Shown: positions 10,190-40,555 of the stretch, one piece after another
Numbering within the stretch: position 1 is the stretch's first letter
How the letters are laid out: the number at the start of each line of letters is the position of its first letter
NCBI GenBank assembly: GCA_964655915.1
Contig: CAZZNV010000001.1
Span: forward strand, 10,012-74,011
Direction of reading: 5' to 3'
Origin: an uncultured Azospirillaceae bacterium
GTDB taxonomy: Bacteria > Pseudomonadota > Alphaproteobacteria > RF32 > CAG-239
Length of the DNA: 64,000 nucleotides
Position numbers and translations under genes: made by a program
The notes under the pieces: generated by a model
The model's database searches: none
Told to the model about the DNA's origin: nothing
The model's input: only the letters and a program-made list of their open reading frames with translations

Positions 10190-10220
10190 TAAAAAGCTGG
10201 ATTTCTCCAGCTTTTTATTT
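10190..10220. terminator. Bidirectional Rho-independent terminator between convergent genes
   Basis: Perfect hairpin AGCTGGA-TTTC-TCCAGCT flanked by an A-run (left) and a T-run (right). Confidence 0.65.
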
Positions 10221-11191
10221 TATGTAACTTCGGTAACGGCGCGTAGGTTTCCATCTCGATTAATTTGGACAACCCTTAACTTCTTACGCATCTCTTCAAT
10301 CGTTTTATAACGATCCATTGACGGGTTTGTATGCAGAATACGATCAACAAAAGCCTGATATGCGGCTTCGGAGCTTTCGGCGTGGATGGTCGCAAAACAG
10401 TTATCGTGACCTGACCCCATCAATTCCCAAATAGTTCCGGCATTGTCTGTTGAAATCTCTCCCCCTAAAATAGCGTCCGGTGTAAAACGAACAACCAAGT
10501 TAATAACTCCGGCGTAGTCCATTTTGTTCGTTTGCTCCGTACGAGATAACACCAAGTGAACACGATTGGGGTGAGGAACAATCAATTCTCTGGCATCTTC
10601 AATCGTTAATATGCGCTTGTGAATGTCCAATATCTTCAACAGATTGTTCAAAAAAGTTGTTTTACCCGTTGCCGTAGCGCCTGAAACAAGTATGTGGTCA
10701 CCTCGTTTAATACTTAACAGCAAGCGCTCATAAGGATCTTCCGGATCTTTTATATCTTTTAGAGGGTTGATTTTATGCAACGTTTGACCTTGTGCCAAAC
10801 CATAATCACCCAAACCAAAAGCCACATCATCCGCATGGACACGAATGGTCAGCGCTATTCCGCCTCGTTGAGCATCTTCCGAATCATACTCAACATTACG
10901 TCCACAAATAGCAGAAAAACGGTGCCCGCCCGGCAATGTTGCGTATAAGGTCGGATTCCCCAATAACGGATCAAACGGCAGTTCGTAAACATTGGAAATA
11001 ATATAAAACAAATTCGTCAGATATTCCTTGGACAGCTTCTCATCTTCGTGCATAACCCACGGATAAGCCCGTTTACCGCGCAAACGCAGCCATACCTGCC
11101 CTGCGTGATTGATTGCGACTTCTTCTATATTTTCCTGATTATACCAATAAGATAAAGGACGTAAAACAGATTCAAGAATTGTAAATGCCAT
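10220..11191 (-). CDS. virB11: VirB11-family T4SS ATPase
   Basis: Walker A (VSGATATGKTTFLN), Asp box (RILTIEDARE) and His box (GHDNCFATIHAES); about 323 aa. It is the last gene of the minus-strand vir operon. Confidence 0.85.
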   Translation of the reverse strand: MAFTILESVLRPLSYWYNQENIEEVAINHAGQVWLRLRGKRAYPWVMHEDEKLSKEYLTNLFYIISNVYELPFDPLLGNPTLYATLPGGHRFSAICGRNVEYDSEDAQRGGIALTIRVHADDVAFGLGDYGLAQGQTLHKINPLKDIKDPEDPYERLLLSIKRGDHILVSGATATGKTTFLNNLLKILDIHKRILTIEDARELIVPHPNRVHLVLSRTEQTNKMDYAGVINLVVRFTPDAILGGEISTDNAGTIWELMGSGHDNCFATIHAESSEAAYQAFVDRILHTNPSMDRYKTIEEMRKKLRVVQINRDGNLRAVTEVT

Positions 11192-11202
11192 TTTTATCTC
11201 CT

Positions 11203-14200
11203 TTAAAACAATGCCGGAACATTACTGTCTGATTGCGTTTGTGCTCCTGTCGGGGCGCCCATTCCTGCTGACGAAGAGGATGGCGGAGGCGGCGGAGCGA
11301 TAAAGTTAGTTCCCGCGGACGAGTTATCTGATTTTGATTTTCCACCATCAATAAGAGGTGTCGATTTTACAGCGTTAACATCTTCACCTTCGGCATCATA
11401 CACAACATCCCCGGCAGTTCCAGCGCTTTGGTATTTTTTTATTTCAGCCTGTTTTCTTTCCGCGGCCTTTTCCTCATCATCTATCAAGACACCACCCTTA
11501 GCTAATTCGCCCTGTACTCTAGCTTCTTCATCGTTATCAATGGTACGCAACCACAAGTCAGACATCGGGTAAACGATAATTCTTGTTCCGGCCGGGATAT
11601 AGGTCATAGGACGAATATTGGATTTATCCGCCAAAATCTCATCAAACACCTTATTCATTTCATTTAAGAAGTTTTGACGCGCATCATTCGCCGCTTCCTG
11701 ACGAGGCGTTTCCGTGCTACTGTCACTGTCTTTTTTAGGCGCCATAAAATAGGAGGTGGCGCTGGTTAAGGTTGTTGTCATAACCGGTAAAGTATATTTT
11801 TTGAATAATTGCTGATCTACATATCCTAAGGCACCGGCTCGACCTTGGGCGTCTGCGGTCAAACCGTTTAACATAAACAATGAGCCATCCGGACGAATTA
11901 GTCTTTCCCATGAAATTTGAACACGAGCCGACTCAGAAGTTGCTTCGGCACTGGCAGACAAACCGCCTAAACTTCCCATTAAACGGCTTCCCGCGGGAAT
12001 AATTACGTTACGACCTTCTTCGGCGTAAACATTCCGCTCAACAAACGCTGTAATGGGAGCAGGGTTATTACTGTCAATAGCGCGGGCAATAACCGCCGGA
12101 ATTGGTTTATCCGCAAAAATCATTGAGCTTAAGTCAACTCTCCATGAAGAAATAACCTTATTAACCCCTTGTTCGCTCCAATCCTTTTGCATTCCGTCAA
12201 AAGCTTCTTTACGGGTTCCGTTACTTATCTTACCGACACTCATATTTTTTCTACGTTCACCCATAGCGGTATTCAGAGCAGCTTGTCTTACGGGGTCATA
12301 CCTCTCTCCGGGACCAAAACCGCCTCCCGGCCCCAAATTCCCCGTAGGACCGGCACCTGTTCCATAAGCGCCACCGTTACCGAAAGTTCCAGGAGGAACA
12401 AACATGCCACTGGTGTCTGCTTTTTTAACCTCTTCAATACCGATCAAGCTTCCTTCATCATCAATAATCAAACCATCGGGCATTTTTCGTCCGAGATAAT
12501 TACCGTTTTCATCAACAACGGTTCCGTCTTCTAATATCTCACCTAAATAATCACCATCCGGCGTCAGCGCAATTCCCAATGACTTACGATATTCGCCATT
12601 CTCCAAAAACTCCAAAGCGGGGGATATATCTTCTTCATCCTCAAGAGGTTCCGGCTGAGGAGCTTTTTCATACCAATTAGAGCCTATTCCGCCAATAATA
12701 TTTCCATTTGCATCAACGGCATCACCATTTTCGCCTATTCGCCCAATAACGTTACCGTCTTTATCCAAAACCGTACCATTGTCTGTGGCATAACCGATAA
12801 GATTTCCGTCTTTATCGTATATTTCTTTTTTATTAAGTGAATCGCCTAAAACATTGCCTTTACCATCTACAAAATTTCCGTTTTCGTCCACACTGCCAAT
12901 GATATTTCCATCTTTATCAACAACATTCCCGTTCTCATCCAAATAACCAACTAAGTTTCCATCTTTATCAAATATCATTTTGCGTTTTGCCTGCGGAGAA
13001 ATGCGGCTGTAATACTGCAACGGCGAAGCCTGAGCAATCCACTCTCCATTTGAATTTTTAACTCTTCCGTCCTCACCTAAATCGCCGACTTTAGCCCCTT
13101 TAGAATCTATAACCACACCATCAAAGGACAACCATCCGATAACAACATTGTCCTTATCCCTAATATTATAATCTCTGTTTCCTCTGGCTAAAACGTTCAA
13201 CTTTTTATCTACCAAAAAGCCTCTATCCAAAGTGCCCATATTTTGGTTATTAAAGTTAACGACATCGCCTTTTCTGCTAATGATACCGATAGCCTTACCT
13301 TCTGCATCATACATATAGAAATCGTAAAGCGCGTACCCTATTTTTCGGCTACCATCGGCAACATAACCGTCGTAATCAACATTACCCAGCTTACGGTTAT
13401 CCGAGGACATAACGGAGCCATCATCCATAACGCGTCCGATAAATTTATTTTCTAAATCAAACGCTATTTTATACTTAAACAGATTACCTATCGGCTTTCC
13501 GACTTCAGAGTTAACGTTACCGTTCGGTTGCTGATACCCGATAACATCACTATCCTCATCAACAACCACACCATCTAACACCGTTCGTCCGATAATTTTC
13601 CCTTTGAAGTCTATTACCGGTGTATAATTAACCGTTGCACCGACAACAACGCCGTCATTATTTTTTACTTCTCCAAAACGGTTTACGCACCCCAACTGGC
13701 GATTTTCGAAATCACGAACTTTACCGTCGGCATTTACAAAACCTATAACTTTCCCATTATAATCAATTATGGGGAGTGTTTGAACAGAAAAACCGATTAT
13801 ACTTCCGCTATCACTCAGGGCTTGTCCGTTTGCCAACAGCCGCCCTAAATATATACCCCGATAATTTTGAACATTACCTTGCGGTCCAATCACACCTATT
13901 ATCTCACAACCATCATTACTTACTGTGCCAAATCCTTGTAAATGACCATTCAAAATATTGTTATTATCCACAGACCAACCATGTTCAGCGATACGTCCTA
14001 TTTTCGCACCACTTAAATCTTTGACATCACCGTTTACATCAGCATAACCAAGGAGATTCCCGTTTAATGAATTAACAATATTGGAGGCATATCCCCAGCC
14101 ATTAACAGGCATAAACCCTTGACTATTGGGCTTATTCGTTTTGTATATGGACATATCAGGAAGAATTTTTCCTACGGTATTCATACTTTTATCAACAACA

Positions 14201-39610: not shown

Positions 39611-39646
39611 GTCGTCCTCCTCTTTTTCATCCGTAGCAGAAAAGCT

Positions 39647-40039
39647 CTATTTGATTGTATCACTTATCTCACTACCAGAACCCTCTCCGGCAATCAGCTC
39701 CAAAAAGCCTCCTGCACCAGCTATAATAAAGAGACTGATTAAGATAGCACCCAACCATTTCCAATTAAGATTACCAAAAAAACCCGTTAAACCGACACCG
39801 ATGATACCAAAACCTGCTACCAGATATATTAAATCACGCATTCCATAGAAAATGTCTTTTCCAGCATTAACTAACTCAGAAAAAACACCCCCACTACCAC
39901 TTGCTGCAGATGAACTATTCCCCGCGACTACCCCTTGAGCCATTGCAAAATCCGATAATATGAAACAACAGAAGGCCGCGACCAGCAGTAGCAAGCTTAT
40001 CTTTTTAAAACATGACATAGCACCCTCCCGTTTGCTCAC
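39647..40039 (-). CDS. virB2: VirB2/TrbC-family T4SS pilin paralog
   Basis: 130 aa. Long leader, then two hydrophobic helices (LIYLVAGFGIIGVGLTGFFGNLNWKWLGAILISLFIIAGAGG). The start may instead be the internal Met (MSCFKK). Confidence 0.6.
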   Translation of the reverse strand: MSKREGAMSCFKKISLLLLVAAFCCFILSDFAMAQGVVAGNSSSAASGSGGVFSELVNAGKDIFYGMRDLIYLVAGFGIIGVGLTGFFGNLNWKWLGAILISLFIIAGAGGFLELIAGEGSGSEISDTIK

Positions 40040-40213
40040 TCTCTTTTATGAATTTGGTTACGCAGCCCGCAAGCCGAATAACTAAAATCACACTAGCGTT
40101 AAAAAAAAGAGGGTCTGGACGTTTGATACTAAATTCCCAAGAACCCTCGTCCGATAGTCCTTATTTGCCGAAGCGGTTGCAGAAGCAACCACTCGGCAAA
40201 ATGAAGGAGAATA

Positions 40214-40555
40214 TTATCTTAAAGAATCACTCAGTTTTCCTTGGGCAAAGCCATCACCGTCGCCAGTACTTGTTGCGTAGTCAACAATAGAACCGGCAGC
40301 AGCCAAGATGGCCAAACCAACAGCTAAACCTGCGAACCACTTCCAGCTGATTTTTCCGGCAATGGCTGAAAAGGCCACACCAACCAAACCGAAACCACCA
40401 ACAATGAACATAATCTGTTTTACCGCAACAAATGCGTTTGCAGCCTTCGTTGTAGCTACATCGGCAATATCAGCGTGTGCTGTTCCGCAGAGGGACATTA
40501 ATGTTGCAACAGCAACCAAGCAAAATGTCCAAGCATTATTTTTAATAAATCGCAT
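40214..40555 (-). CDS. virB2: VirB2/TrbC-family T4SS pilin paralog
   Basis: 113 aa. Signal peptide (CLVAVATLMSLCGTAHA), then IMFIVGGFGLVGVAFSAIAGKISWKWFAGLAVGLAILAAAG. First gene of the minus-strand operon. Confidence 0.6.
   Translation of the reverse strand: MRFIKNNAWTFCLVAVATLMSLCGTAHADIADVATTKAANAFVAVKQIMFIVGGFGLVGVAFSAIAGKISWKWFAGLAVGLAILAAAGSIVDYATSTGDGDGFAQGKLSDSLR

What the first reader, a model, noticed from the sequence alone, without database searches (positions are those of the whole stretch)
10220..40555. Single ~30 kb rvh-like T4SS operon with duplicated virB8, virB7 between them, three virB2 paralogs and tandem virB6 elsewhere
Gene content and order (virB2 x3, virB3, virB4, ..., virB8, virB7-like lipoprotein, virB8, virB9, virB10, virB11, with no virB5 and no virD4 in the window, plus two VirB6-like genes in tandem at 2-3723) resemble the Rickettsiales vir homolog (rvh) system. 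In rvh, virB4/8/9 are duplicated, virB6 is multiplied and extended, and virB5 is absent. Here everything except virB6 is in one contiguous operon rather than scattered islands, and it sits next to a type IVb pilus cluster.
Basis: partly seen in the sequence, partly recalled or inferred. Interest (0 to 1): 0.5.

Follow-up and report, generated by a model that had tools for sequence, protein, structure and literature searches.

The report
Expanded VirB-type secretion system, not rvh
A 30-kb operon in an uncultured gut alphaproteobacterium encodes a complete but heavily elaborated VirB-type type IV secretion machine that is conserved in hundreds of related gut species; it looks like the Rickettsia 'rvh' system mainly through a VirB8 duplication that arose separately from the single-VirB8 relatives I could compare.

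Summary
The operon is real. Window 10220-40555 (minus strand) holds 18 tightly packed genes: VirB2 x2, a 1128-aa VirB2 fusion, VirB3, VirB4, six secreted proteins, VirB8, a VirB7 lipoprotein, VirB8, VirB9 (with a SPOR tail), a 1137-aa membrane-anchored repeat protein, a 1511-aa VirB10 and VirB11. It lies beside two VirB6-like genes and a type IVb pilus cluster.

The rvh reading is not supported. The window has one VirB4 and one VirB9, and no VirD4. The gene after VirB4 looks like a VirB5. The two VirB8 copies are sisters (87% bootstrap) relative to single-copy VirB8s from three relatives. Neither copy detects Rickettsia RvhB8-II. The nearest annotated relatives are conjugative VirB/VirD4 modules with a relaxase. 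I could not obtain any Rickettsiales sequence, so a direct tree is missing.

The layout is kept in about 80 related gut MAG loci, and 257 species genomes carry the VirB4. Core parts are 55-82% identical; the secreted proteins are only 22-40% identical. No VirD4 or relaxase was found in any locus.

Best reading: a domesticated P-type secretion system that builds a variable surface or contact organelle, comparable to Bartonella Trw and Helicobacter Cag. It is a new variant of a known kind, and I found no paper describing it.

The parts
40214..40555 (-). VirB2 pilin paralog a (113 aa)
   Evidence: Pfam TrbC/VirB2 at 33.9 bits, above the cut-off. Signal peptide plus two hydrophobic helices. 36% identical to the annotated Microvirga VirB2. 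Median 57% identity in 68 related loci.
39647..40039 (-). VirB2 pilin paralog b (130 aa)
   Evidence: Pfam TrbC at 27.0 bits, just under the cut-off. 27% identical to paralog a, E 1e-12. Found in 66 related loci.
36224..39610 (-). 1128-aa protein: N-terminal VirB2-like domain, about 900 aa of unknown fold, then C-terminal 17-aa beta-hairpin ('beta-flower') repeats
   Evidence: VirB2a vs residues about 42-103: 37% identity, E 5e-13. Microvirga VirB2 matches at E 1.7e-7. Signal peptide plus two hydrophobic helices. The C-terminus (1032-1127) matches the repeats of the 1137-aa protein, E 1.6e-11. Length varies between species, and in some species it is an ordinary-sized pilin.
35746..36048 (-). 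VirB3 (100 aa, two TM segments), overlapping the VirB4 start
   Evidence: No Pfam hit. E 4e-8 to the annotated Microvirga VirB3. Median 68% identity in 79 loci.
33324..35756 (-). VirB4 ATPase (810 aa)
   Evidence: Pfam CagE_TrbE_VirB. TIGR00929 at 377 bits, but below every curated equivalog cut-off. Walker A GPTGQGKT and Walker B LIMIDE. 74-82% identical in more than 120 protein clusters and 257 species genomes.
31361..33277 (-). VirB5-like secreted helical protein (638 aa) with a variable central insert
   Evidence: Signal peptide, then mature N-terminus QIPSID. 77 related loci have an ORF in this position, nearly all with (I/V/W)Px(I/L/V)D after the signal peptide. The family profile vs VirB5s of conjugative relatives gives hhalign E 3.4e-5 from mature residue 1, with signal peptides removed. 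One of those relatives passes Pfam VirB5 PF07996. No direct Pfam or PDB hit. AF2 model all helical but pLDDT 48.
30780..31364 (-). Secreted 194-aa protein, paralog of the C-terminal domain of the 638-aa protein
   Evidence: 28% identical to residues 490-637 of the 638-aa protein, E 1.7e-5. Signal peptide. Recognisable in only 19 of 80 loci.
29429..30811 (-). Secreted 460-aa coiled-coil protein, unknown function
   Evidence: Signal peptide. Only coiled-coil noise in NCBIfam. Recognisable in 12 of 80 loci at 25-35% identity.
28912..29436 (-). Secreted 174-aa protein, unknown function
   Evidence: Signal peptide. No family hit. Recognisable in 10 of 80 loci.
26786..28915 (-). Secreted 709-aa helical protein, unknown function
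   Evidence: Signal peptide. Shares a short segment with the 638-aa protein, E 8e-4. Recognisable in 12 of 80 loci.
22635..26786 (-). Secreted 1383-aa protein. Present across the clade but fast-evolving, in the position where VirB6 normally lies; no TM segments
   Evidence: Signal peptide only. No Pfam, NCBIfam or PDB hit. Found in 75 of 80 loci at a median 29% identity.
21881..22624 (-). VirB8 paralog a (247 aa), the extra copy upstream of VirB7
   Evidence: Pfam VirB8 at 64.9 bits. NPLG motif. Median 54% identity in 68 loci. Forms its own clade at 100% bootstrap.
21593..21781 (-). VirB7-like lipoprotein (62 aa counted from the internal ATG; lipobox LSGC)
   Evidence: Lipobox. 44% identical, E 1e-7, to the 58-aa lipoprotein that precedes VirB8 in Microvirga. 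Median 74% identity in 45 loci.
20844..21578 (-). VirB8 paralog b (244 aa), the canonical copy downstream of VirB7
   Evidence: Pfam VirB8 at 82 bits. NPTG motif. Closer than paralog a to the single VirB8 of L086.
19161..20840 (-). VirB9 (559 aa) with a Gly/Gln-rich linker and a C-terminal SPOR-like peptidoglycan-binding domain
   Evidence: Pfam CagX/VirB9 at 41.2 bits. SPOR at 20.8 bits here (cut-off 21) and 27.1 bits in the L083 ortholog.
15741..19154 (-). 1137-aa protein: N-terminal TM anchor plus about 53 copies of a 17-aa beta-hairpin repeat; paralog of the VirB10 repeat region
   Evidence: TM segment at 19-37. Pfam Bflower_2 at 238 bits. 17-residue periodicity. 27% identical to the VirB10 repeat region, E 3e-68. 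The ortholog in L083 is 56% identical.
11203..15738 (-). Giant VirB10 (1511 aa): signal peptide, about 65 17-aa beta-hairpin repeats, Gly-rich linker, TrbI/VirB10 domain, Pro-rich tail
   Evidence: Pfam TrbI at 123.5 bits for residues 1207-1397 and Bflower_2 at 198.6 bits. Homologs of 1470-1770 aa in more than 120 clusters, so this is not a frameshift artefact. AF2 with an MSA gives pLDDT above 90 for the repeat region, all beta-hairpins. The C-terminus weakly matches ComB10 and pKM101 TraF by Foldseek. A conserved AxA-QE cleavage site appears in the alignment.
10220..11191 (-). VirB11 ATPase (323 aa)
   Evidence: TIGR02788 VirB11 at 140 bits and Pfam T2SSE. Walker A GATATGKT. 83% identical in L083.
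4984..10184 (+). Four T4SS-associated genes of unknown function: 781 aa, 249 aa, a 425-aa lipoprotein and a 263-aa TM protein
   Evidence: No Pfam hits. In the related locus L083 their homologs (25-67% identity) follow VirB11 directly on the same strand. In the window the block is inverted relative to that arrangement.
3842..4858 (+). XRE-type regulator with two HTH domains, conserved next to the locus
   Evidence: Pfam HTH_3 x2. 78% identical in L083.
2..3723 (+). Two tandem VirB6-like polytopic proteins. The first is cut by the window edge. The second is 886 aa with a hydrophilic C-terminal extension of about 460 aa
   Evidence: Pfam TrbL/VirB6 at 21.3 bits (below cut-off) and 32.8 bits (above cut-off). 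Mutual similarity E 5e-9. 6-7 hydrophobic segments. A homolog of at least 908 aa lies at the same place in L083.
40944..52069 (+). Divergently transcribed type IVb pilus cluster: TcpQ-like protein, secretin, assembly ATPase, platform protein and two PilS/bundlin-like pilins
   Evidence: Pfam TcpQ, Secretin, T2SSE, T2SSF, PilS and Bundlin. The same divergent adjacency is seen in about 50 of 80 related loci.

Best explanation
This is a chromosomally fixed ('domesticated') P-type (VirB/VirD4-like) type IV secretion system that is characteristic of a clade of uncultured gut Alphaproteobacteria (CAG:495 / Candidatus Scatocola-like MAGs). It descends from the same T4SS family as MobA/MobL-VirD4 conjugative modules of free-living Alphaproteobacteria.

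Shown:
- It keeps a full, apparently functional core: VirB2, B3, B4, B7, B8, B9, B10 and B11, with VirB6-like genes nearby.
- No coupling protein or relaxase is present in the locus.
- The parts predicted to be periplasmic or exposed have been expanded: three or four VirB2 pilin paralogs (one fused to a large extension), a VirB5-like protein followed by a variable set of fast-evolving secreted helical proteins, a second VirB8, a SPOR domain on VirB9, and about 120 copies of a 17-residue beta-hairpin repeat split between a signal-peptide-bearing VirB10 and a membrane-anchored partner.

Inferred:
- The VirB4/VirB11-driven machine assembles a pilus or surface organelle whose exposed parts (pilins, VirB5-like tip proteins, large secreted proteins) are under diversifying pressure.
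- This organelle, together with the adjacent type IVb pilus, mediates contact with other cells (host, protist or bacterium).
- The two repeat proteins together take over the inner-to-outer-membrane bridging role of a normal VirB10.
- Whether substrates are also translocated is open.

The B8-B7-B8 order is a parallel to rvh. It is not evidence of membership.
For: - Core identification.
- Clade-wide conservation and vertical pattern: VirB4 at 74-82% identity in more than 120 protein clusters and 257 species genomes, all gut or rumen alphaproteobacterial MAGs. The same gene order holds in about 80 loci and in L083.
- Unequal rates: core proteins 54-82% identical, while proteins between VirB4 and VirB8 are 22-40% identical, variable in number, and span 7.4 to more than 10 kb. 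The 638-aa protein has no detectable homolog by word search.
- VirB2 copy number: three VirB2-like genes in 45 of 63 loci and four in 12.
- VirB5-like identity of the post-VirB4 gene.
- No VirD4 or relaxase homolog in the window or in 84 related loci.
- Relatives at 37-38% VirB4 identity are conjugative modules with MobA/MobL, a single VirB8, a 563-590-aa VirB10 and VirD4.
- Other close relatives (42-48%) are chromosomal islands among housekeeping genes.
- The VirB8 duplication is lineage-specific relative to those relatives.
- The giant VirB10 is conserved at 1470-1770 aa. Its repeat region is a confident all-beta model with 17-aa periodicity. VirB10 has a conserved signal-peptidase site, and the partner has the TM anchor.
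- Precedent for T4CP-less T4SSs with multiple variable VirB2 and VirB5 copies acting in adhesion (Bartonella Trw): PMC12857230.
Against: - The function is inferred from gene content only. No expression, structural or genetic data exist.
- A VirD4, a relaxase or effectors could be encoded elsewhere in the genome; I could examine only 64 kb and +/-10 kb in relatives.
- The VirB5 assignment rests on position plus a 46-column profile match (E 3.4e-5). Direct Pfam and PDB searches gave only coiled-coil noise, and the AF2 model was poor.
- 'Diversifying selection' is inferred from identity differences, not from dN/dS.
- The fast-evolving secreted proteins could equally be effectors or periplasmic components.
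- No Rickettsiales sequence was available, so non-membership in rvh rests on hallmarks and indirect comparisons.
Confidence: 0.55

Rival explanations
1. It is an rvh-type system: a true homolog, or the unscattered ancestor, of the Rickettsiales vir homolog T4SS, used to translocate effectors into eukaryotic cells.
For: - The order VirB8-VirB7-VirB8-VirB9-VirB10-VirB11 matches R. typhi rvhB8-II, rvhB7, rvhB8-I, rvhB9-II, rvhB10, rvhB11 (PMC4676284).
- At least two tandem VirB6-like genes are present, one with a long extension.
- The host is an alphaproteobacterium.
- The closest VirB4 clusters include AT-rich genomes with scattered T4SS islands and an ankyrin-repeat protein.
- rvh is thought to have been acquired from a proteobacterial donor (PMC9352585).
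Against: - The published hallmarks are B4, B8 and B9 duplication, multicopy B6 and no VirB5 (PMC11077975). The window has a single VirB4 and a single VirB9, and a VirB5-like gene is present.
- There is no VirD4 beside VirB11.
- The VirB8 paralogs are sisters (87% bootstrap), with a single-copy VirB8 as outgroup. They are 33-36% identical, against 19% or less in rvh.
- Neither VirB8 profile detects RvhB8-II (4O3V) at E<=10.
- The best annotated relatives are conjugative modules.
- No named Rickettsiales protein turned up among the 30 nearest VirB4 clusters I could look up. Most of those carry no name, so this is weak evidence.
Confidence: 0.08
2. It is the mating-pair-formation module of a conjugative element (ICE). 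The type IVb pilus stabilises mating as in IncI plasmids, and the coupling protein and relaxase are encoded elsewhere.
For: - The nearest annotated relatives are conjugative modules.
- The pairing of a T4SS with a type IVb pilus recalls R64 and ICE systems (my own knowledge).
- A resolvase and two tRNA genes lie in the window.
Against: - No relaxase or VirD4 in 64 kb or in 84 related loci.
- The locus is present at 74-82% VirB4 identity in 257 species genomes with the same layout. That pattern looks vertical rather than that of a mobile element.
- Massive surface elaborations are not typical of conjugation modules.
Confidence: 0.12
3. It is an effector-translocating or bacteria-killing T4SS. 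The fast-evolving secreted proteins, or others encoded elsewhere, are the cargo, and a coupling protein is encoded elsewhere or is dispensable, as in Brucella VirB or the Ptl system.
For: - A complete energised core with VirB11.
- T4CP-less translocating systems exist (PMC12857230).
- Sec-dependent signal peptides on the variable proteins would fit a two-step, Ptl-like export route.
Against: - No toxin, immunity, XVIPCD-like or eukaryote-like domains were found in the locus.
- The variable proteins are arranged like pilus-associated VirB5 paralogs, not like effector-immunity pairs.
- Not otherwise testable here.
Confidence: 0.17
4. It is a DNA-uptake (ComB-like competence) system working together with the adjacent type IV pilus.
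For: - No VirD4, as in H. pylori ComB (PMC12857230).
- The VirB10 domain scores marginally best against the ComB10 model (116.9 vs 105.5 bits) and against the ComB10 structure.
- An adjacent type IV pilus cluster is present.
Against: - ComB lacks VirB11 and pilin multiplication (my own knowledge). Here VirB11 and three VirB2 genes are conserved.
- The preference for ComB10 is within noise.
- No ComEC or DprA-type genes lie in the locus.
Confidence: 0.05

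Closest known systems
Conjugative VirB/VirD4 (P-type, MPF-T) modules of Alphaproteobacteria, e.g. Microvirga sp. VF16 plasmid pMVF16-3, the Erythrobacter aureus plasmid, and metagenomic locus L087
   Same: - Same gene order: B2, B3, B4, VirB5(-like), B7, B8, B9, B10, B11.
- Highest identities to any annotated system: VirB4 37.5%, VirB11 40%, VirB9 32%, VirB10 domain 31%, VirB8 29-33%, VirB7 44%, VirB3 26%.
- VirB9 is also about 540-550 aa.
   Different: - Those modules have a MobA/MobL relaxase, a DnaB-like helicase, VirD4 and UvrD. 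They have a single VirB2 and a single VirB8, a 563-590-aa VirB10 without repeats, and only two VirB5-like genes.
- The window system has none of the DNA-transfer genes in the locus. It has all the expansions, and it sits on the chromosome across a whole clade.
Rickettsiales vir homolog (rvh) T4SS
   Same: - Alphaproteobacterial, chromosomal and clade-defining.
- VirB8 is duplicated with VirB7 between the copies, followed by B9-B10-B11.
- Multiple, extended VirB6-like genes.
   Different: - One VirB4 and one VirB9 in the window.
- A VirB5-like gene is present.
- No VirD4 next to VirB11.
- A single operon instead of islands.
- The VirB8 paralogs are much less diverged and are sisters to each other.
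- It has a giant repeat VirB10, a partner protein, three VirB2 genes and a pilin fusion, none of which are rvh features.
Bartonella Trw T4SS
   Same: - No coupling protein.
- Multiple sequence-variable copies of the pilin (VirB2) and of VirB5-type proteins.
- Proposed to make variable adhesive pili rather than to translocate (PMC12857230).
   Different: - Trw is closely related to plasmid R388 Trw, whereas these VirB8s score better against VirB8 of the VirB system than against TrwG.
- Trw amplifies trwL and trwJIH as near-identical tandem units. Here the paralogs are old and very divergent, and the machine core itself (B8, B9, B10) is also modified.
Helicobacter pylori Cag T4SS (CagY = giant repeat-bearing VirB10, CagX = enlarged VirB9)
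   Same: An expanded T4SS with a VirB10 homolog enlarged several-fold by internal repeats N-terminal to the VirB10 domain, an enlarged VirB9, and extra system-specific secreted components.
   Different: - The repeats here are 17-residue beta-hairpins of the Pfam 'beta-flower' type. They are unrelated to the CagY repeats, which are helical according to my own knowledge.
- No Cag-specific families were detected.
- Cag has a coupling protein (Cag-beta).

Membership tests
P-type (VirB/VirD4-like, MPF-T) type IV secretion system | VirB4-family ATPase with intact nucleotide-binding motifs | tested here: met
   Pfam CagE_TrbE_VirB and TIGR00929 at 377 bits. Walker A and B intact.
P-type (VirB/VirD4-like, MPF-T) type IV secretion system | VirB2 pilin, VirB3, VirB8, VirB9, VirB10 (TrbI domain) and VirB11 encoded together in the canonical order | tested here: met
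   Pfam and NCBIfam hits for B2, B8, B9, B10 and B11. B3 and B7 identified through the annotated Microvirga homologs.
P-type (VirB/VirD4-like, MPF-T) type IV secretion system | Polytopic VirB6 | tested here: met
   The 886-aa ORF at 1063-3723 passes the Pfam TrbL/VirB6 cut-off (32.8 vs 25.9 bits) and has 6-7 hydrophobic segments. It lies outside the operon.
P-type (VirB/VirD4-like, MPF-T) type IV secretion system | VirD4 coupling protein | tested here: not met
   No T4CP domain in any window ORF. Microvirga VirD4 finds nothing in the window or in 84 related loci. The rest of the genome was not searchable.
Rickettsiales vir homolog (rvh) | Duplicated VirB8 (RvhB8-I and RvhB8-II) flanking VirB7 | tested here: met
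   Two intact VirB8 genes with a lipoprotein between them. However, the paralogs are 33-36% identical and are sisters in the tree. In rvh they are 19% identical or less.
Rickettsiales vir homolog (rvh) | Duplicated VirB4 (RvhB4-I and RvhB4-II) | tested here: not met
   Only one VirB4 in the 64-kb window and in each related locus. A whole-genome search was not possible.
Rickettsiales vir homolog (rvh) | Duplicated VirB9, with one copy upstream of the first VirB8 | tested here: not met
   One VirB9 in the window. The gene upstream of VirB8a is a 1383-aa secreted protein with no VirB9 domain.
Rickettsiales vir homolog (rvh) | No VirB5 analog | tested here: not met
   The gene after VirB4 has a signal peptide and a VirB5-type mature N-terminus in 77 loci. 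Profile match to VirB5s of related conjugative modules: E 3.4e-5. One of those passes Pfam PF07996. The evidence is moderate, not conclusive.
Rickettsiales vir homolog (rvh) | Multicopy, extended VirB6 | tested here: inconclusive
   At least two tandem VirB6-like genes, one with a C-terminal extension of about 460 aa. The array is cut by the window edge, so the copy number is unknown.
Rickettsiales vir homolog (rvh) | RvhD4 coupling protein next to rvhB11 | tested here: not met
   VirB11 is followed by unrelated genes in the window and in L083.
Rickettsiales vir homolog (rvh) | Orthology of the components to Rickettsiales Rvh proteins (phylogeny) | not testable with these tools
   I could not obtain any Rickettsiales sequence. 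Indirect evidence: the VirB8 profiles miss RvhB8-II (4O3V) at E<=10 while finding Bartonella, Agrobacterium and Brucella VirB8. The nearest VirB4 clusters that carry names are non-Rickettsiales.
Conjugative element (plasmid or ICE) mating-pair-formation module | Linked relaxase and coupling protein | tested here: not met
   Neither is present in the window or in 84 related loci. Both are present in the relatives at 37-38% VirB4 identity.
Bartonella Trw-like adhesion T4SS (functional class) | No T4CP, plus multiple sequence-variable VirB2 and VirB5 copies | tested here: met
   Three or four VirB2-like genes in 57 of 63 loci. A VirB5-like gene plus paralogous fragments, hypervariable between species. 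No T4CP in the locus. This is a functional analogy only; the system is not closely related to R388 or Trw.
Cag-like expanded T4SS (functional class) | Giant repeat-bearing VirB10 and system-specific extra components | tested here: met
   A 1511-aa VirB10 with about 65 repeats and a 1137-aa partner. No Cag-specific families were detected, so this is an analogy and not membership.

The most novel reading that the evidence does not exclude
This locus would represent an undescribed architectural class of 'expanded' type IV secretion system, fixed in a whole order-level clade of uncultured gut Alphaproteobacteria. In this class, the envelope-spanning VirB10 function is split between an inner-membrane-anchored protein and an outer-membrane VirB10. 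The two are joined by more than 100 beta-hairpin repeats. A pilin is fused to a 1000-aa appendage carrying the same repeats, and a hypervariable VirB5-derived protein family decorates the pilus. It would be a second, independent domestication of a conjugative P-type T4SS in host-associated Alphaproteobacteria. It would have converged on rvh-like features (VirB8 duplication around VirB7, extended multicopy VirB6), and AT-rich relatives already show rvh-like scattering of the genes.
Probability: 0.35. Interest if true: 0.75.

Novelty: new variant of a known kind. Interest (0 to 1): 0.55.

Why it matters
These gut Alphaproteobacteria are widespread in humans, ruminants, birds and mice, but they are uncultured and their lifestyle is unknown. 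A 30-kb secretion machine kept in at least 257 species genomes, paired with a type IVb pilus, is probably central to how they interact with other cells. It gives a concrete handle on their biology: are they epibionts, parasites of protists, or adherent to the host?

For T4SS biology it offers three things:
- a natural experiment parallel to rvh on how conjugation machines are domesticated;
- a case of VirB8 duplication that can be dated against single-copy relatives;
- unusual structural solutions, namely a beta-hairpin-repeat VirB10 pair, a VirB9-SPOR fusion and a pilin fusion, which could be tested by cryo-ET and structure prediction.

Tried and rejected
- Look-up of the source contig via the exact VirB4 protein found nothing on record.
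Downstream synteny was therefore obtained through VirB10 homologs and the look-up of encoding contigs.
- Direct searches for VirB5 gave only coiled-coil noise. These were the Pfam scan of 43 family members and a profile vs the PDB, where TraC 1R8I scored E 0.93.
- The homolog search with the 638-aa protein returned only itself, so no MSA was available.
- The single-sequence AF2 model was too poor for a fold search (pLDDT 48).
- A first hhalign result was partly driven by signal peptides, as a control with the 460-aa protein showed. It was repeated after trimming them.
- I tried to find Rickettsiales RvhB4 among the 150 nearest 50%-cluster representatives by name look-up, including picking AT-rich sequences. 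Nearly all are unnamed metagenomic proteins, and the named ones are from Alphaproteobacteria MAGs, Sphingorhabdus and Aliarcobacter.
- The supplement of the RvhB8 paper is not held.
- PDB sequence searches with the 1383-aa, 1128-aa and 425-aa proteins gave nothing useful.
- Literature searches for this clade plus T4SS, and for 'beta-flower', found nothing relevant.
- Frameshift artefact considered and rejected: the 1137-aa and 1511-aa ORFs are not a frameshifted single gene. Both exist as separate genes of similar size in many genomes.
- Second VirB11 considered and rejected: the ATPase at 54187-55149 is closer to the pilus ATPase.

Full report
OBSERVATION

The window (42% GC) carries 18 co-directional genes on the minus strand between 10220 and 40555. 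Intergenic distances run from a 32-nt overlap to 175 nt. This fits one long operon, possibly with internal promoters in the two 175-nt gaps.

In transcription order, Pfam and NCBIfam scans, hydrophobicity and lipobox analysis and comparison with an annotated relative identify:
- VirB2 (113 aa).
- VirB2 (130 aa).
- A 1128-aa protein whose first 110 or so residues are a third VirB2 domain (37% identity to VirB2a, E 5e-13).
- VirB3 (100 aa, two TM segments; no Pfam hit, but E 4e-8 to an annotated VirB3).
- VirB4 (810 aa, Walker A and B intact).
- Six proteins of 638, 194, 460, 174, 709 and 1383 aa. All have signal peptides, none has TM segments, and none has a family hit.
- VirB8 (247 aa).
- A 62-aa lipoprotein (lipobox LSGC) homologous to the VirB7-position lipoprotein of a relative.
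- VirB8 (244 aa).
- VirB9 (559 aa).
- A 1137-aa protein with one N-terminal TM anchor and 'beta-flower'/YD-type repeats.
- VirB10 (1511 aa: signal peptide, the same repeats, then a TrbI domain at 1207-1397).
- VirB11 (323 aa).

On the plus strand, upstream of the VirB11 end, lie two VirB6-like polytopic genes. The first is cut by the window edge; the second is 886 aa and passes the Pfam threshold. They are followed by a double-HTH regulator and four genes of unknown function. On the other side, divergently transcribed, is a type IVb pilus cluster: TcpQ-like protein, secretin, ATPase, platform protein and two PilS/bundlin pilins.

What was missed:
- The third 'virB2' is a giant fusion.
- VirB10 is about three times its normal size and has a paralogous partner.
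- 10.7 kb of secreted-protein genes fill the gap between virB4 and virB8.

WHOSE LOCUS IT IS, AND HOW CONSERVED

The VirB4 protein has more than 120 cluster-level homologs at 74-82% identity. All come from metagenomes, and the few named ones are 'MAG: Alphaproteobacteria bacterium'. A scan of one genome per species found relatives in 257 genomes. The best 80 have titles such as 'Proteobacteria bacterium CAG:495', 'uncultured Alphaproteobacteria' from human, Hadza, roe deer, chicken and mouse gut, and 'Candidatus Scatocola'. NCBI files Candidatus Scatocola under Rhodospirillales. From memory, GTDB places CAG-495 in order RF32.

Mapping the window proteins onto these loci and onto a locus that covers the downstream half (L083) shows the same architecture everywhere: VirB2 x2-4, VirB3, VirB4, secreted proteins, the large secreted protein, VirB8a, VirB7, VirB8b, VirB9, repeat protein, giant VirB10, VirB11. 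The type IVb pilus cluster is divergent upstream in about 50 of 80 loci.

Rates of change differ sharply between parts:
- Core proteins, median identity: VirB4 77%, VirB3 68%, VirB7 74%, VirB9 67%, VirB8a 54%, VirB8b 58%, and VirB11 83% in L083.
- Proteins between VirB4 and VirB8: recognisable in only 10-75 of the 80 loci, at 22-40% identity.
- That interval varies from 7.4 to more than 10 kb.
- A word-based search of 5.8 billion proteins with the 638-aa protein found only itself.
- The giant VirB10 is a separate gene of 1470-1770 aa in more than 120 clusters, so it is not an assembly or frameshift artefact.

TESTING THE RVH INTERPRETATION

The papers define the rvh hallmarks as duplication of VirB4, VirB8 and VirB9, multicopy VirB6, and no VirB5 analog (PMC11077975). 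The R. typhi order is rvhB9-I, rvhB8-II, rvhB7, rvhB8-I, rvhB9-II, rvhB10, rvhB11, rvhD4. The RvhB8 paralogs share 19% identity or less (PMC4676284).

What matches: the B8-B7-B8-B9-B10-B11 order, and tandem, extended VirB6-like genes.

What does not match:
1. The window holds one VirB4 and one VirB9.
2. There is no VirD4 next to VirB11, anywhere in the window, or in 84 related loci.
3. The genes form one operon.
4. The two VirB8s are 33-36% identical and both keep the NPxG motif.
5. I built a neighbour-joining tree with orthologs from several species and the single VirB8s of three relatives. The VirB8a and VirB8b clades (each at 100% bootstrap) are sisters at 87% bootstrap, and the single-copy VirB8 of locus L086 is their outgroup at 92%. 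The duplication therefore happened inside this lineage.
6. Profiles of VirB8a and VirB8b detect Bartonella, Agrobacterium and Brucella VirB8 and TrwG in the PDB, but not R. typhi RvhB8-II (4O3V) at E<=10.
7. A VirB5-like gene is present (next section).

I could not obtain any Rickettsiales sequence. That includes the 30 VirB4 cluster representatives I looked up by name, so a direct tree against Rvh proteins is missing. On the evidence available, the resemblance to rvh is a parallel, not membership.

IS THERE A VIRB5?

In 77 related loci there is an ORF directly after VirB4, and in nearly all of them it encodes a signal peptide followed by a mature N-terminus of the form (I/V/W)P(V/T/S)(I/L/V)D. 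The window has QIPSID. The same is true of the gene after VirB4 in the related conjugative modules: Microvirga has QVPVLD, and Erythrobacter has GIPVID.

The Erythrobacter protein passes the Pfam VirB5 model PF07996 (30.3 bits, cut-off 24.7), aligned from profile position 1 at its mature N-terminus. The L087 protein scores 22.7 bits and the Microvirga one 12.6 bits.

A profile of 43 clade members against these VirB5s gives hhalign probability 94.8% and E 5e-8. A control showed that signal peptides alone can give such values. After removing the signal peptides, the match is 46 columns from mature residue 1, probability 72%, E 3.4e-5.

Shorter orthologs (about 300 aa) consist of just the N- and C-terminal conserved parts, so the 638-aa window protein carries a variable central insert. 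The 194-aa protein is a paralog of its C-terminal domain (E 1.7e-5), and the 709-aa protein shares a short segment with it.

Direct Pfam and PDB searches and a single-sequence AF2 model were uninformative. I rate 'VirB5-derived' at about 75%.

RELATIVES AND ORIGIN

Against 72,556 plasmids, the best VirB4 matches are below 38% identity: Microvirga, Sphingosinicella, Erythrobacter and Candidatus Paracaedimonas.

The Microvirga locus and the metagenomic locus L087 (38%) have the same layout: MobA/MobL relaxase, DnaB-like helicase, VirB2, B3, B4, VirB5, a second VirB5-like gene, B7, one VirB8, a 540-550-aa VirB9, a 563-590-aa VirB10, VirB11, VirD4 and UvrD. This is a conjugation module.

An exhaustive search of 1.84 billion cluster representatives found closer relatives:
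- 48% identity (L085): 29% GC, with an ankyrin-repeat protein nearby. VirB3-VirB4 and VirB11 sit as separate single islands among housekeeping genes. Its VirB11 is 59% identical to the window's.
- 42% identity (L086): a VirB3-VirB4-VirB7-VirB8-VirB9 island among housekeeping genes, with a single VirB8.
- 37% identity (L088): an AT-rich alphaproteobacterial MAG with a VirB3-VirB4 island.

The family therefore includes mobile conjugative versions in free-living Alphaproteobacteria and several chromosomally fixed versions in what look like host-associated lineages. The gut clade is the most elaborate of these.

THE UNUSUAL PARTS

VirB10 starts with a conserved signal-peptidase site (AxA-QE in the family alignment) instead of the usual cytoplasmic tail and TM helix. 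The partner protein has a short cytoplasmic tail and a TM helix. I infer that the two proteins together replace the inner-to-outer-membrane span of a normal VirB10.

Other unusual features:
- The C-terminus of the pilin-fusion protein carries the same repeats (E 1.6e-11).
- VirB9 ends in a SPOR-like peptidoglycan-binding domain: 20.8 bits here, 27.1 bits in L083, cut-off 21.
- Four genes of unknown function (781 aa, 249 aa, a 425-aa lipoprotein, a 263-aa TM protein) follow VirB11 on the same strand in L083 but are inverted in the window. They probably belong to the system.

HOW IT MOST LIKELY WORKS

Shown:
- A complete, intact P-type core with two ATPases.
- No linked coupling protein or relaxase.
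- Clade-wide conservation.
- Multiplication and fast divergence of pilin, VirB5-like and other secreted components.
- Conserved pairing with a type IVb pilus.

Inferred:
- The machine builds a pilus or surface organelle whose exposed parts vary between species.
- It serves contact or adhesion to other cells. This compares with the T4CP-less Bartonella Trw system, with its variable VirB2 and VirB5 copies (PMC12857230), and with the expanded Cag system and its repeat-bearing VirB10.
- Protein translocation (two-step, or with a VirD4 encoded elsewhere) cannot be excluded.
- Conjugation and DNA uptake are less likely, for the reasons given under the rival explanations.

NOVELTY

I found no paper linking this clade to a T4SS or describing such a VirB10. 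It is a T4SS, so the kind is known. The combination of features is a new variant. Interest is moderate to fairly high for T4SS and gut-microbiome specialists. The specific claim that drew attention (rvh-like) is mostly not borne out.

Noticed in passing
window 40944-52069 (+), and 54187-55149 (+): A complete type IVb pilus cluster is transcribed divergently from the T4SS: a 571-aa protein, a TcpQ-like protein, secretin, two unknowns, assembly ATPase, platform protein and two PilS/bundlin-type pilins. A separate 320-aa PilT-like ATPase lies nearby. The divergent pairing with the T4SS is conserved in about 50 of 80 related loci, which suggests co-regulation from the shared 390-nt intergenic region.
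   Followed up: partly
window 19164-19493 (-), C-terminus of VirB9: VirB9 ends in a SPOR-like peptidoglycan-binding domain behind a Gly/Gln-rich linker. It scores 20.8 bits here and 27.1 bits in the L083 ortholog (Pfam cut-off 21). The C-terminus of the equally long Microvirga VirB9 gives no SPOR hit.
   Followed up: partly
window 4984-10184 (+) vs L083 15678-20602: The four-gene block (781 aa, 249 aa, a 425-aa lipoprotein, a 263-aa TM protein) lies directly downstream of VirB11 on the same strand in L083. In the window it is inverted, so it converges on VirB11. The regulator and the VirB6-like genes are also rearranged between the two genomes.
   Followed up: partly
L085 (ENA ERZ16268156 scaffold_1450), L088 (GCA_016735395.1) and L086 (GCA_054385355.1): The closest non-clade VirB4 relatives (48%, 37% and 42% identity) sit in small T4SS islands scattered among housekeeping genes. 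L085 has 29% GC and an ankyrin-repeat protein next to the islands, which resembles an endosymbiont and the rvh-style scattering. The organisms were not identified.
   Followed up: partly
window 56359-59244 (+): A VWA-domain protein, a PP2C phosphatase and a Ser/Thr protein kinase lie in a row. This is a signalling triad of unknown relation to the secretion locus.
   Followed up: no
window 52453-52529, 60794-60884 and 60987-61658: tRNA-Arg(CCT) and tRNA-Ser(GGA) genes, with a serine recombinase (resolvase) directly after the tRNA-Ser. This may be the edge of an integrated element unrelated to the T4SS.
   Followed up: no
window 36224-36520 (-), C-terminus of the 1128-aa pilin-fusion protein: The last 100 or so residues carry the same 17-aa beta-hairpin repeats as VirB10 and its partner. 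This hints that the three proteins interact through the repeats.
   Followed up: partly
L081 23932-25218 and L087 13355-14536: In the related conjugative modules, the gene at the usual VirB6 position is a second VirB5-like secreted protein (Pfam VirB5 E 0.002 in L087), not a polytopic VirB6. A small 228-aa protein with about four TM segments lies between the two VirB5-like genes in Microvirga.
   Followed up: no
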